Shown piece by piece: positions 16,011 to 19,327 of a stretch of 64,000 nt of DNA. Each line of letters starts with the position of its first letter. Position 1 is the stretch's first letter. Below the pieces are notes generated by a model. That model did no database searches. It was not told the DNA's origin and was given only the letters and a program-made list of their open reading frames with translations. Location of the stretch: the NCBI RefSeq assembly GCF_009914755.1, contig NC_060931.1. One strand, written 5' to 3'. A program made the position numbers and the translations under genes. This DNA comes from the human T2T-CHM13v2.0 reference genome, Homo sapiens.

Positions 16011-16062
16011 GGGGGCTGCCTACAACTCTTTCCAAGATTGTTTTTAATTAAAAGTAATATAA

Positions 16063-16370
16063 GGCCGGGCGCACTGGCTCACACCTGTAATCCCAGCACT
16101 TTGGGAGGCCGAGGTGGGCAGATCACGAGGTCAGGAGATCGAGACCATCCTGGCTAACACAGTGAAACCCCGTCTCTACTAAAAATACAAAAAATTAGCT
16201 GGGCGTGGTGGCGGGCGCCTGTAGTCCCAGCTGCTTGGGAGGCTGAGGCAGGAGAATGGCGTGAACCTGGGAGGCGGAGCTTGCAGTGAGCTGAGATCGT
16301 GCCACTGCACTCCAGCCTGGGCGACAGAGCGAGACTCTGTCTCAAAAAAAGAAAGAAAAAGAAAAAGAAA
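16063..16370 (+). mobile_element. AluY (probably chimeric)
   Basis: Y diagnostics 'gagatcgagaccatcctggctaacac', 'gaatggcgtgaacc','gagcttgcagtg'; its left TSD is not repeated after its own tail. Confidence 0.95.
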
Positions 16371-16386
16371 TTAAAGTCTCCGAATA

Positions 16387-16539
16387 GGCCGGGCATGGTG
16401 GCTCATGCCTGTAATTCCAACACTTTGGGAGACTGGGGCAGAAGGATGGCTTTTGGCCAGGAGTTCAAGGCTGCAGTGAGCTATAATAGTGCCATAACAC
16501 ACCAGCCTGGGCAACAGAATGAGACCCTGTCTCTTAAAA
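16387..16539 (+). mobile_element. Monomeric Alu (FAM/FRAM/FLAM-like)
   Basis: Single arm of about 150 bp, 'gagttcaaggctgcagtgagctat'. Confidence 0.85.
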
Positions 16540-16832
16540 TATACATATATAAAATTATATAAATATTTATAAATATTAAATATTTATATATTTAATATTT
16601 ATATATTATATATGTATAAATATTTATATATTAAATATATAAATATATAAATGTATATATAAATATATACATAAATGTATATATAAATGTATATATAAAT
16701 ATATATAAATGTATATATAAATATATATAAATGTATATATAAATGTATATATAAATATATATATAAATATATATAAATGTATATATAAATATATATATAA
16801 ATGTATATATAAATATATATATATATATATAT
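16540..16832. repeat. AT-rich minisatellite (TATATATAAATG-like)n ending in (TA)n
   Basis: About 290 bp of almost only A/T with ~12-bp units. Confidence 0.95.
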
Positions 16833-17139
16833 GGCTGGGCACCGTGGCTCATGCCTGTAATACCAACACTCTGGGAGGCTGAGGCAGTTGGATCACCCGA
16901 GGTCAGGAGTTCCAGACCAGCCTGGCCAACATGGTGAAACTCCATTTCTACTAAAAATACAAAAAATTAGCTGGGCATGCTGTCAGACATCTGTAATCCC
17001 CAGCTACTCAGGAGGCTGAGGCAGGAGAATCATTTGAACCAGGGAGGCAGAGGTTGCAGTGAGCTGAGATCATGCCAGTGCACTCTAGACTGGGTGATGG
17101 AGCAAGACTCTGTCTCAAAATAAATAAATAAATAAATAA
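16833..17139 (+). mobile_element. AluS with (TAAA)n tail
   Basis: Full dimeric Alu. Confidence 0.95.
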
Positions 17140-17140
17140 G

Positions 17141-17276
17141 GGCTGGGCACGGTGACTCACGCTTTTAATCCTCATACTTTGGGAGACCCAGGCAGGAGGA
17201 TCACTTGAGGCCAGAAGTTCGAGACCAGCCTGGACAATATGGTGAAATCTCATCTCTACTAAAAATACCAAAATTA
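17141..17276 (+). mobile_element. Alu left arm
   Basis: Left monomer ending at the A-rich linker, into which the next Alu inserted; no right arm follows. Confidence 0.88.
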
Positions 17277-17578
17277 GGCCAGGCACAGTGGCTCAAGCCT
17301 GTAATCCCAGCACTTTGAGAAGCTGAGGTGGGTGGATCACGAAGCCAGGAGTTCAAGACCAGCCTGGCCAAGATAGTGAAACCCCATCTCTACTAAAAAT
17401 ACAAAAAAAAAAAAAAAATAGCCAGGAGTGGTGGTGGGTGCCTGTAATCCCAGCTACTCAGGAGGCTGAGGCAGAGAATTGCTTGAACCCAGGAGGCAGA
17501 GATTGCAGTGAGCCAAGATGGCGTCACTGCACTCCAGCCTGGAAGACAGAGTGAGACTCCATCTCAAAAAAAAAAAAA
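17277..17578 (+). mobile_element. AluS inserted in the linker of the previous Alu
   Basis: Full Alu; TSD aaaatac(c/a)aaaattag on both sides. Confidence 0.93.
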
Positions 17579-17646
17579 TACAAAAATTAGTTGTTAGTTT
17601 AGTTGCTGCCTAAAAGCAAGACTAGGCTCTCATGGAGGTACAATGG

Positions 17647-17924
17647 GGCCGGACGCGGTGGCTCACGCCTGTAATCCCAGCACTTTGGGAGGCCGAGGCG
17701 GGCAAATCACGAGGTCAGGAGATTGAGACCAGCCTGGCCAACATGGTGAAACCCTGTCTCTACTAAAAAAAAAAAAATAGCCGGGTGTGGTGGCTCATGC
17801 CTGTAATCCCAGCTACTCAGGAGGCTGAGGCAGGAGAATTGCTTGAACCTAGAAGGCAGAGGTTGCAGTGAGTCGAGATTCAGCCACTGCACTCCAGCTT
17901 TGGCGACAGAGCAAGACTACATCT
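17647..17924 (+). mobile_element. AluS lacking poly(A) tail
   Basis: Alu body ends 'agactacatct' then unrelated 'aggcggtgtcggggg'. Confidence 0.93.
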
Positions 17925-18764
17925 AGGCGGTGTCGGGGGGAAGAAGTAAAATGGACAGCAGCAAACCACAGGTGTGATAGGAGAGAATACTGAGCTGAGA
18001 TCAGTCTCCTAAAATTTGAATCGGATTTCAGGATCATTCATTTATCTGACTGTCAAGAATGCCTCTGAACAGGAGGAAGAATTTGGGGAGAGGGTGGGGT
18101 TTGTTGAAAGGGCACCGAGAAGGGAAGGGGGTGGTACCCAAACAATTTGTTTACATAATGTTTTTTGGACCTAAAATATGTAGAAAAGTACTTTGAAACT
18201 AAAGTACTGTACTGAAGTTTAATATTTTTCTTATTGCTTGCCTATTCTCCCTCCCAGATAATTTACAGAGGGCACTAAAGCTGATCCCCTGGGAGCTTCA
18301 GAGTTTAATGACTTCGCCTGACGATTTCCTATTCTTTTCCACAAGGTGCTAAGTCAAATTATGGCCAAATTACCAATCGCATGGTAATTCAGCTTCTAAA
18401 TATATTTTGTAGAGTGTTTCCAAAAGTTAAAAAAAAAAAAAACTTTACCTAAATTGTTTTTACTTGCTTCACCTTAAATCAGTTATTCGGTTCCTTTGAA
18501 GAACATGTTGCTTTAGCAACCCCCAAAGTGAACCCAGATACCCAGGACTACTGATTGTTACATCAGAGTTTTTGAAAACGCCAACACTGGAAACAGGCCG
18601 ACAGTTAAGGAGAGGCAGGCCTCAAACTAAAGCAGAACCTTCTCAAAACTACTTATATTTCAAGAGATGGATTAAGCGAAAAGAGCTGTACAAAGAAGCC
18701 ATTGTCTATGCGCCTGTTATATGCAAGGCACTGCACTCCCTTGTCACTTGTTAATTTACAAGAA

Positions 18765-19035
18765 GACTCGCGGGTCCAAGGAAAGGGAGAGGGGAACAGG
18801 TGCAAGGTTTGTGGAGGGCGGCAAACTGCACTCCACGTGCCGCGGGGCTGCGCTTGCGAAGACCAGGGTTCTGATGCCTGGCGCCGGCTGCCAGGTAGGG
18901 GCGCGCATCCTGCGCAGTTGCCGCGCGCGGCCTCCTCCAGCTTCAGGCCGGGCCAATCAGGAGGCGGGCGGGAGGGGGCACGGCGCCGCGAGGGGGCGGG
19001 GCCGCGTCGGGCTTTGCTGTCTGCTGGCCAGCTGG
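18765..19035 (+). promoter_or_regulatory. Small CpG island with promoter architecture (orphan)
   Basis: About 28 CpGs in ~250 bp (hand count); CACGTG 18834, GCGCAT/TGCGCA near 18903-18916, GGCCAATCAG 18951, GGGGCGGGGC 18993. Confidence 0.75.
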
Positions 19036-19293
19036 AGTCCAAGGTGGGCGGGTCACAAGGTCAGGAGATCGAGACCATCCTGGCTAACACGGTGAAACCC
19101 CGTCTCTACTAAAAATACAAAAAATTAGCTGGGCGTGGTGGCGGGCGCCTGTAGTCCCAGCTACTCGGGAGGCTGAGGCAGGAGAATGACGTGAACCTGG
19201 GAGGCGGAGCTTGCAGTGAGCCAAGATCGTGCCACTGCACTCCAGCCTGGGCGACAGAGCGAGACTCCATGTCAACAACAACAACAAAAAAAA
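19033..19293 (+). mobile_element. AluY missing first ~40-45 nt
   Basis: Begins 'ccaaggtgggcgggtcacaaggtcaggagatcgag'; (CAA)n/A tail followed by aaaagtaatataaggc. Confidence 0.95.
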
Positions 19294-19327
19294 GTAATAT
19301 AAGGCATTCATTTTTGTTTCACTGCTC

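What the first reader, a model, noticed from the sequence alone, without database searches (positions are those of the whole stretch)
16050..19305. One AluY TSD brackets 3.2 kb: a foreign segment apparently copied into an Alu
Seen: AAAAGTAATATAAGGC occurs at 16050-16065, after TT (a TT/AAAA L1-endonuclease site) and overlapping the AluY start. It recurs identically at 19290-19305, right after the tail of a different AluY that lacks its first ~40-45 nt. The first AluY has no matching TSD after its own tail. The enclosed block has six Alu pieces in under 2 kb, much denser than the flanks. Inference: one AluY was broken near position ~45 and repaired by copying ~2.9 kb from another locus, using Alu-Alu homology on the left and microhomology (tggagtccaagg vs Alu tgggaggccgagg) on the right. 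Alternative: the whole block was retrotransposed as one RNA primed on the last Alu tail.
Basis: partly seen in the sequence, partly recalled or inferred. Interest (0 to 1): 0.85.

Follow-up and report, generated by a model that had tools for sequence, protein, structure and literature searches.

The report
Mosaic copied patch inside one AluY
A 2.7-kb patchwork of DNA copied from two nearby places on human chromosome 7, including a spare gene promoter, sits inside the footprint of a single Alu insertion; it is a clear example of a known kind of copy-and-paste DNA repair, not a new mechanism.

Summary
AAAAGTAATATAAGGC occurs exactly twice in the window (16050-65 and 19290-305; 0 of 100 shuffles gave two). 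It follows TT, abuts a full-length AluY on the left, and follows the A-tail of a 5'-truncated AluY on the right.

The enclosed DNA is foreign, and the predicted paralogs exist on the same chromosome arm.
- P2 lies 0.84 Mb away, inverted. It holds two pieces, 16366-~17085 and 16891-18620 (96.8%), in permuted order with a processed CLK2 copy between them.
- P1 lies 0.75 Mb away. It matches 17591-19027 (93%) and continues into a first coding exon.

P2's own structure shows that the window copy derives from P2. The last 0.4 kb, a CpG-island core promoter, can only come from P1.

The patch therefore has four junctions:
- the end of the AluY tail joined to P2;
- a hybrid Alu (switch at 16952-16979);
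- a P2-to-P1 switch within homologous sequence;
- P1 joined to AluY position ~50 by about 3 nt of microhomology.

My best reading is template-switching repair or replication (MMBIR/SDSA-like), roughly 10-15 My ago. This is a new member of a known kind, of moderate interest.

The parts
16050..16065 (+). Left copy of the target-site duplication, after TT (TT|AAAA). The last 3 nt overlap the Alu 5' end.
16063..16366 (+). Left AluY-type element: full-length body 16063-16343 plus a G-interrupted A-tail 16344-16366.
16366..16832 (+). Segment A, copied from P2 (chr7:23,722,2xx-23,722,885, minus strand). It holds 21 nt of unique DNA, an internally deleted Alu (16387-16535) and an AT-rich microsatellite. 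Only 1 mismatch in 175 aligned bases to P2.
16833..17139 (+). Hybrid Alu plus tail. Its 5' part matches the P2 Alu 'q' up to 16951; its 3' part and TAAA-type tail match the P2 Alu 'p' from 16980. The switch lies within 16952-16979, in the A-rich linker.
17140..17590 (+). Left half of an old Alu (17140-17277), with a nested full Alu (17278-17578) and a second copy of the linker motif TACAAAAATTAG (17579-17590). Copied from P2 together with p and B'.
17591..18620 (+). Segment B'. It is 97.8% identical to P2 and 94.3% to P1 (substitutions only), and includes an Alu at 17644-17926 that all three copies share.
18621..19027 (+). Segment B''. It is present only in the window and in P1 (upstream region and core promoter of the P1 gene). 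Positions 18781-19027 are still a CpG island (GC 72%, 26 CpG, o/e 0.85) with a CCAAT box and GC boxes. It overlaps the RefSeq 'enhancer' 18900-19459.
   Evidence: hub annotation in the finding
19028..19044 (+). Right junction zone CCAGCTGGAGTCCAAGG. It aligns either to P1 (TCAGCTGG-TCCGCAGGG, with a small local duplication of GCTGG) or, with a 5-nt gap, to Alu positions 31-49. The microhomology with the Alu is about AGG.
19045..19289 (+). Right AluY-type element from about position 50 (body to 19273) plus a C-interrupted A-tail 19274-19289.
19290..19305 (+). Right copy of the target-site duplication.

Best explanation
Step 1 (shown by anatomy). One AluY-type element inserted by ordinary L1-mediated target-primed reverse transcription at TT|AAAAGTAATATAA(GGC). 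This made the 13-16 nt duplication.

Step 2 (inferred). Later, roughly 10-15 My ago, a break or collapsed fork at this Alu was repaired by DNA synthesis that switched templates four times.
(i) From the end of the AluY A-tail into P2, 0.84 Mb away and inverted, at ..A|GAAATTAAAG (2-5 nt microhomology). It then copied segment A and the 5' half of Alu q.
(ii) By Alu-Alu homology, in the A-rich linker, back 5 kb to Alu p of the same locus. It then copied p's 3' half, the half-Alu with its nested Alu, and B'.
(iii) By about 95% paralog homology, somewhere in 18510-18620, over to P1, 90 kb from P2. It then copied up to the edge of the P1 gene's 5' end.
(iv) By about 3 nt of microhomology (AGG), back into the AluY at position ~50.

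The result is TSD - whole AluY + tail - 2.7-kb mosaic - AluY(50-end) + tail - TSD. In my preferred version the AluY 3' part is present twice. Either synthesis returned to the sister copy behind the break (MMBIR), or a break at position ~50 was first extended on the sister copy (SDSA with over-synthesis). Sequence alone cannot separate these two.
For: TSD and endonuclease site.

Donors. The unique part has exactly 2 other copies in the assembly, both on chr7. Segment A has exactly 1 other copy.

Direction P2 to window.
(a) In P2, A lies in unique DNA on its left, and its Alu q is complete, with its own tail inside a TA-repeat.
(b) In P2, the half-Alu before B' ends in TACAAAAATTAG. The missing right half, starting AAAAAATTAG, lies just after a processed CLK2 copy that follows B'. 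The CLK2 copy is identified by 13 chr1 exon pieces contiguous in it and PDB CLK2 at E=9e-200. So the half-Alu|B' junction was created at P2.

Mosaic order. In P2 the two pieces lie in the order p..B' - CLK2 copy - A..q. The window has A-q/p-..B'. Informative sites in the hybrid Alu: the window matches q at 16913, 16916, 16949 and 16951, and matches p at 16980, 16987 and at all 28 later informative columns. The one exception is 16988.

B'' from P1. The CLK2 copy is older than the window-P2 split: 65 of 1735 mismatches to chr1, 2.77% non-CpG, scored on 12 of the 13 exon pieces, against 1.46% non-CpG for window vs P2. P2 therefore already lacked B''. Only P1 has it. The last two informative sites before 18620 are window=P1.

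Three-way sites in B': of 69, 46 are window=P2, 12 are private to the window, 10 are private to P2 and 1 differs in all three. Window and P2 are thus sisters, with P1 as outgroup.

No donor Alu at the left junction.

Left vs right AluY. Per-lineage CpG loss is 0.25 and non-CpG mismatches are 4 of 231. The window-vs-P2 Alu parts show the same values, 0.25 and 19 of 966. This is as expected if the two AluY copies were identical when the patch arrived.

Known mechanism. Chimeric Alus and template switching/MMBIR in Alu/Alu-mediated rearrangements are described in PMC6071635 (passages read).
Against: The two AluY tails share no interruptions: G-type on the left, C-type on the right. For the right AluY to be a duplicate of the left, both patterns must have arisen after the event.

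The left AluY is no closer to the right one than unrelated genomic AluYs are. Left-right identity is 94.8%. The 29 unrelated hits reach up to 95.7% to the right AluY and 94.8% to the left. The equal divergence is therefore also what two young independent AluYs would show. The three shared CpG-to-TpG changes are matched by two sites that decayed independently in opposite directions, so they prove nothing.

The CpG-island part of B'' is 9.8% diverged from P1 (24 of 245, clustered), against 2 of 159 just upstream. That is too much for a copy of this age unless the local rate is high or synthesis near the junction was error-prone.

No outgroup genome or human haplotype could be examined. The order of events, and even the fixation of the block, rest on one assembly.
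Confidence: 0.6

Rival explanations
1. The AluY was broken near position 45. The left end invaded a different AluY that sat next to the donor segment, so the left Alu is a chimera of target Alu(1-45) and foreign Alu(45-end + tail). The right end was sealed by microhomology.
For: The right AluY starts at about position 50, next to the Alu region I recall as a recombination hot spot. The two tails are different. The left and right AluY are not demonstrably copies of each other.
Against: The only other copy of segment A in the assembly has unique DNA, not an Alu, immediately upstream. A third, unidentified AluY locus would therefore be needed, with a switch exactly at the end of its tail. The one genomic Alu with the identical tail pattern (L061) is only 90% identical in its body and lacks the left Alu's private variants.
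Confidence: 0.15
2. A second L1-mediated event. A new Alu RNA was reverse-transcribed from a nick in the first AluY's A-tail. The reverse transcriptase then jumped from Alu position ~50 onto other RNAs (P1 and P2 transcripts). This would give a chimeric retrocopy whose own target duplication is hidden in poly-A.
For: Alu A-tails are good L1 endonuclease targets. Chimeric retrocopies made by template jumps are known (PMC4476161 and PMC2104539, search listing and abstract starts only). P2 itself appears to hold such a chimera. The right Alu with an A-tail next to the duplication fits target-primed reverse transcription.
Against: It needs three separate unspliced, intergenic RNAs, with switches in the middle of homologous stretches (an Alu linker, and the paralogous B) rather than at RNA 5' ends. 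B'' ends at a promoter, reading towards the transcription start, with no poly-A of its own. No transcript evidence was available.
Confidence: 0.1
3. A pre-assembled donor. Recombination between Alus p and q at P2 (unequal exchange, or an excised circle) and exchange with P1 first built a contiguous A-q/p-B'-B'' molecule or allele. That molecule was then captured at a break in the AluY. The donor allele has since been lost.
For: p and q are direct repeats 5 kb apart. Recombination between them yields exactly the A-q/p-B' order seen in the window.
Against: It does not explain the CLK2 copy being skipped, or the acquisition of B'' from P1, without further steps. No such arrangement exists elsewhere in this assembly. 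It also does not explain the two AluY pieces.
Confidence: 0.1
4. The whole 3.2-kb block was retrotransposed as one RNA primed on the last Alu tail, or the 16-mer match is coincidental.
For: The block has a TSD, a TT|AAAA site and a terminal A-tail.
Against: No locus in the assembly holds the block or either diagnostic junction. The parts lie in permuted order at the source. Chance is excluded (0 of 100 shuffles).
Confidence: 0.03

Closest known systems
Alu/Alu-mediated rearrangements and MMBIR/FoSTeS-type complex rearrangements (PMC6071635, passages read; PMC4352052, passages read)
   Same: There is a chimeric Alu at an internal junction. Template switches are guided by homeology or a few bases of microhomology. 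Several donor stretches from nearby loci on the same chromosome arm are used, one of them inverted. The target may also be duplicated at the return point.
   Different: The described cases are mostly recent pathogenic deletions, duplications or triplications. This one is a small (2.7 kb) insertional mosaic in the reference-grade assembly, apparently millions of years old, and is nested inside the footprint of one Alu insertion.
Templated sequence insertions, class 2 (DNA 'patch' repair of a double-strand break; PMC5110952, abstract read)
   Same: Sequence templated from a distant region is inserted at a break, and the patch itself has no retrotransposition hallmarks.
   Different: According to an outline heading of that paper ('TSIs are derived from RNA'; I did not read that section), the patches are RNA-derived. 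Nothing I read describes a multi-donor patch with homology-guided internal switches like this one. The TSD and A-tail seen here belong to the host Alu, so the block mimics class 1.
Interspersed segmental duplications with Alu elements at their ends (Bailey et al. 2003; seen only as a citation in PMC6071635, its content recalled)
   Same: It is a duplicated block over 1 kb at 96.8% identity whose ends lie in or at Alu elements.
   Different: It is much smaller than typical duplicons, and its mosaic origin and target footprint can be read base by base.
Chimeric retrocopies made by L1 reverse-transcriptase template jumps (PMC4476161, PMC2104539; search listing and abstract starts only)
   Same: This applies to the donor P2. 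A processed CLK2 copy is fused at its 5' end to a fragment of the P1 upstream region by a ~7-nt overlap, and the pair lies inside one Alu linker flanked by a repeated AAAAATTAG.
   Different: It applies to the older event at P2, not to the window block. The poly-A of the CLK2 copy is not visible (GCCCCCC stands in its place), so the single-event reading at P2 is an inference.

Membership tests
Classical L1-mediated Alu insertion (outer AluY) | Direct target-site duplication of about 7-20 nt flanking the element | tested here: met
   A 13-16 nt exact repeat that occurs only twice in the window.
Classical L1-mediated Alu insertion (outer AluY) | Insertion at a TT|AAAA-type endonuclease site, with the A-tail next to the 3' duplication and the intact 5' end next to the 5' duplication | tested here: met
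   Read directly. The 5' end and the tail lie 3.2 kb apart, on two Alu pieces.
Alu/Alu-mediated rearrangement | A chimeric Alu at the junction, with both parental Alus identifiable | tested here: met
   The window Alu at 16833-17116 matches q on the 5' side and p on the 3' side, with one switch at 16952-16979. Both parents lie at P2.
MMBIR/FoSTeS-type templated complex insertion | Two or more donor stretches joined with microhomology or homeology, and no retrotransposition marks on the patch | tested here: met
   There are three donor stretches from two loci. The end junctions have about 2-5 nt and about 3 nt of overlap. The patch has no poly-A at its own end.
MMBIR/FoSTeS-type templated complex insertion | Duplication of target sequence at the point of return | tested here: inconclusive
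   The two AluY pieces are as diverged as the window-P2 copies are, but they are no closer to each other than to unrelated AluYs.
MMBIR/FoSTeS-type templated complex insertion | Point mutations clustered near junctions | tested here: inconclusive
   There are 13 mismatches to P1 in the last 43 nt before the right junction (sites 18980-19022), and a small local duplication. There is no outgroup to polarise them, and no such excess at the left junction (1 of 175).
Retrocopy / class 1 templated insertion (whole block or patch) | The insert's own poly-A tail downstream of a poly-A signal, and colinearity with one transcript | tested here: not met
   The patch ends in a CpG-island promoter with no A-run. 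Its parts are permuted at the source and come from two loci.
Segmental duplication (1 kb or more, 90% or more identity) | Length and identity thresholds | tested here: met
   1740 columns at 96.8% to P2, and 1456 columns at 93.1% to P1.

The most novel reading that the evidence does not exclude
A fixed germline repair event with four template switches among three loci within 0.85 Mb delivered a spare CpG-island core promoter (CCAAT and GC boxes of the P1 gene, which I recall as FAM221A) into an lncRNA intron. The copy has kept its CpG density for millions of years while neighbouring Alu CpGs decayed. If so, it stayed unmethylated in the germline and was taken up as a new regulatory element, which RefSeq lists as an enhancer at 18900-19459. 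That would be promoter duplication by repair synthesis acting as a source of new enhancers or promoters.
Probability: 0.3. Interest if true: 0.55.

Novelty: new member of a known kind. Interest (0 to 1): 0.4.

Why it matters
This is an unusually legible fossil of multi-template repair synthesis in the human germline. Every junction can be read, and both donors survive nearby. One donor's own history (a CLK2 retrocopy inside an Alu) gives the direction of copying. The example also shows that a target-site duplication and an A-tail around a block do not prove retrotransposition of that block. That is a practical warning for classifying 'class 1' templated insertions and transductions. The copied core promoter still looks like a CpG island and overlaps an annotated enhancer, so the event may have created regulatory DNA.

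Tried and rejected
(1) I searched the genome with the left AluY plus tail to find a foreign source Alu. Nothing was returned, not even the query's own place, because the words are too common. The result is uninformative.

(2) I searched for the left tail pattern. It gave 975 matches at up to 3 mismatches, so the pattern is not diagnostic. The single other exact-tail Alu (L061) is only 90% identical in its body and was rejected as a donor.

(3) I tried to show that the right AluY is a duplicate of the left one. The consensus built from 29 genomic hits is biased towards the query, because the right copy's private variants are all enriched in it. The left copy was not among the 40 places scored, of 1993 candidates (39 other Alus and the query's own place). 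There are three shared TpG changes against two independent opposite-direction decays. By my hand count, 5 of 19 CpG sites are decayed in both copies; a hand hypergeometric calculation gives p of about 0.02, and mutable sites would inflate that overlap. I left this undecided.

(4) I looked for remnants of B'' or of P1 exon sequence in the 3 kb between the P2 pieces. Only Alu hits were found.

(5) I considered that the window was the source and P2 the copy. This was rejected on the split-Alu structure at P2, on the native context of segment A, and because the CLK2 copy is older than the window-P2 split.

(6) I considered an inversion with duplicated breakpoints. This was rejected because the window flanks were contiguous before the Alu insertion, as the TSD shows.

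(8) No primate genomes, pangenome haplotypes, repeat library or human gene annotation for P1/P2 were available.
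Full report
OBSERVATION. AAAAGTAATATAAGGC lies at 16050-16065 and 19290-19305. These are the only two matches in the 64-kb window even when 2 mismatches are allowed, and none of 100 dinucleotide-preserving shuffles gave two. The left copy follows TT (TT|AAAA). Its last three bases coincide with the first bases of a full-length AluY-type element (body 16063-16343, tail 16344-16366). 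The right copy follows the tail (19274-19289) of a second AluY-type element that aligns to the first only from about position 50. No copy of the repeat follows the first Alu's own tail.

ANATOMY. The following parts lie between the two Alu pieces:
- segment A (16366-16832): 21 nt of unique DNA, an internally deleted Alu and an AT-rich microsatellite;
- an Alu with a TAAA-type tail (16833-17139);
- the left half of an old Alu (17140-17277), which carries a nested full Alu (17278-17578) and a second copy of the linker motif TACAAAAATTAG (17579-17590);
- B' (17591-18620), which contains one more Alu;
- B'' (18621-19027), whose last 247 nt are a CpG island (GC 72%, 26 CpG, o/e 0.85) with a CCAAT box and GC boxes.

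PARALOGS. The window's own assembly could be searched. The unique part (17927-19033) has exactly two other copies, both on chr7.
- P1 (chr7:23,818,016-23,819,468, + strand, 0.75 Mb away) matches 17591-19027 at 93.1% over 1456 columns. It runs on into an ATG-initiated first exon ending in a GT donor. I recall the peptide as the start of FAM221A; this is unverified.
- P2 (chr7:23,725,872-23,727,609, minus strand, 0.84 Mb away) matches 16891-18620 at 96.8% over 1740 columns.
- Segment A has one other copy, also at P2 (to chr7:23,722,885, minus strand). It runs on through the microsatellite into a complete Alu, 'q'.
Read on the minus strand, P2 has the order: unique DNA | Alu p (5'-truncated) - half-Alu with nested Alu - B' | 3 kb | A - Alu q - TA-rich - unique DNA. 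The two pieces are therefore permuted relative to the window.

DIRECTION OF COPYING. The 3 kb between the P2 pieces starts with a processed copy of CLK2. Thirteen chr1 exon pieces are contiguous in it, and its translation matches PDB CLK2 at E=9e-200. Its 5' end overlaps the end of B' by about 7 nt, GGC(A/G)GGC. Its 3' end is followed by the right half of an Alu beginning AAAAAATTAG, while B' is preceded by a left half-Alu ending TACAAAAATTAG. So at P2 one Alu was split in its A-rich linker by [B' + CLK2 copy], with a repeated AAAAATTAG on both sides, and the nested Alu reused the same site. The half-Alu|B' junction was therefore made at P2, and the window inherited it. Segment A is also at home in P2: it has unique DNA on its left, and Alu q is complete with its own tail inside a TA-repeat. 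The window block is the copy.

AGES.
- In B' there are 69 three-way informative sites: 46 are window=P2, 12 are private to the window, 10 are private to P2, and 1 differs in all three. Window and P2 are sisters, with P1 as outgroup.
- Window vs P2 shows 44 mismatches in 1728 aligned bases (2.55%); over B' alone, non-CpG divergence is 1.46%.
- P1 vs P2 shows 59 of 1037.
- The CLK2 copy vs chr1 shows 65 of 1735 (3.75%; non-CpG 2.77%). This was scored on the 12 of 13 exon pieces that lay in fetched loci.
The CLK2 copy is thus older than the window-P2 split, so P2 already lacked B'' when the window block arose. B'' can only have come from P1, the sole other copy. The last two informative sites before 18620 (18533 and 18617) are window=P1, which fits a switch within 18510-18620. 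From recalled human-ape divergences, 2.5% total suggests an age of the order of 10-15 My. This is an inference.

JUNCTIONS.
(1) Left junction..GAAAAAGAAAAA|GAAATTAAAG.. in the window against ..GCTAGGTTTA|GAAATTAAAG.. in P2. The junction is at the end of the AluY tail, with a 2-5 nt overlap, and the donor has no Alu there.
(2) Hybrid Alu: the window matches q up to 16951 and matches p from 16980 on, including all 28 later informative columns. One site (16988) is out of pattern, and q carries a private 10-nt deletion.
(3) P2-to-P1 switch inside homologous B.
(4) Right junction: P1 homology ends between 19027 and 19044, about 30 nt before the P1 ATG, and the Alu starts at ..AGG|TGGGCGG.
Both diagnostic junction strings are unique to the window in this assembly. 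The left string has 2 places, the second being P2 without an Alu. The right string has 1 exact place.

MECHANISM. Two kinds of junction are present: homology-guided internal switches (Alu to Alu, paralog to paralog) and microhomology at the ends. The donors lie on the same chromosome arm, and one is inverted. This pattern is what template-switching repair synthesis produces. Chimeric Alus and MMBIR are discussed for Alu/Alu-mediated rearrangements in PMC6071635 (passages read). BIR/MMBIR with reduced fidelity and processivity is discussed in PMC4352052 (passages read). The simplest path needs only the window, P2 and P1. It leaves the target AluY whole on the left, with its 3' 240 nt plus tail repeated on the right.

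Support for that last point is weak. Left-vs-right AluY divergence (CpG loss 0.25 per lineage, 4 of 231 non-CpG) equals that of the Alu parts of window vs P2 (0.25, 19 of 966). But unrelated AluYs are just as close to either copy, and the tails share no interruptions. Two young independent AluYs would look the same.

An L1-mediated chimera primed in the first Alu's tail needs three unspliced RNAs and mid-sequence jumps. Retrotransposition of the whole block has no donor.

UNEXPLAINED. The CpG-island part of B'' differs from P1 at 24 of 245 sites. These are clustered: 13 fall in the last 43 nt before the junction, with several adjacent double changes. The 159 nt before it differ at only 2 sites. 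A block nested in this AluY cannot be older than the AluY. So this reflects either a high local rate, error-prone synthesis near the junction, or something I have not seen. The window copy has kept 26 CpGs against 27 in P1 (22 shared), whereas about a quarter of the Alu CpGs decayed per lineage. This suggests the copy stayed unmethylated in the germline. RefSeq lists an enhancer at 18900-19459 (hub annotation in the finding).

COMPARISON AND VERDICT. By structure the block is a small interspersed segmental duplication and a multi-template 'patch' insertion with a chimeric Alu. These are known kinds (PMC6071635; PMC5110952, abstract read). It mimics a retrotransposed unit only because it sits inside an Alu's footprint. 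I rate it a new member of a known kind, well resolved, with moderate interest (0.4). I made no search for a prior description of this specific locus, so I make no claim that it is unpublished. Supplements were not consulted.

Noticed in passing
L005:5883-9360 (chr7:23,723,882-23,727,359, minus strand), outside the window: At P2 a processed CLK2 copy (13 exon pieces, 3.75% from chr1) is fused at its 5' end to a 1-kb fragment of the P1 upstream region by a ~7-nt overlap. The pair sits inside the A-rich linker of one Alu, flanked by a repeated AAAAATTAG, and a further Alu is nested at the same site. It looks like a bipartite chimeric retrocopy. No poly-A is visible after the CLK2 3' end; GCCCCCC stands there instead.
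   Followed up: partly
window 18781-19027: The copied core promoter is still a CpG island (26 CpG, o/e 0.85, against 27 and 0.92 in P1; 22 shared), although Alu CpGs of the same age lost about 25% per lineage. It overlaps the RefSeq enhancer 18900-19459. The copy may be active and unmethylated.
   Followed up: partly
window 18836-19022: Differences to P1 are clustered (24 of 245, with several adjacent double changes), while 18621-18780 has 2 of 159. No explanation was established.
   Followed up: partly
window 16536-16832 vs L005:4517-4712: The AT-rich microsatellite behind the deleted Alu is about 100 nt longer in the window copy than in P2, and is rearranged, so the two BLAST pieces overlap with a shift.
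   Followed up: no
L005:9590-9640 and window 19040-19056: P2's Alu p is cut off at its 5' end at nearly the same Alu position (..GGGAGG|TGGGCTGATCAC) as the window's right AluY (..CAAGG|TGGGCGGGTCAC). Both cuts lie just 3' of the Alu segment I recall as a recombination hot spot.
   Followed up: no
L066 (chr3:166,786,216-166,786,245): A 30-mer with 3 mismatches to the window's right junction string. It is probably chance and was not examined.
   Followed up: no
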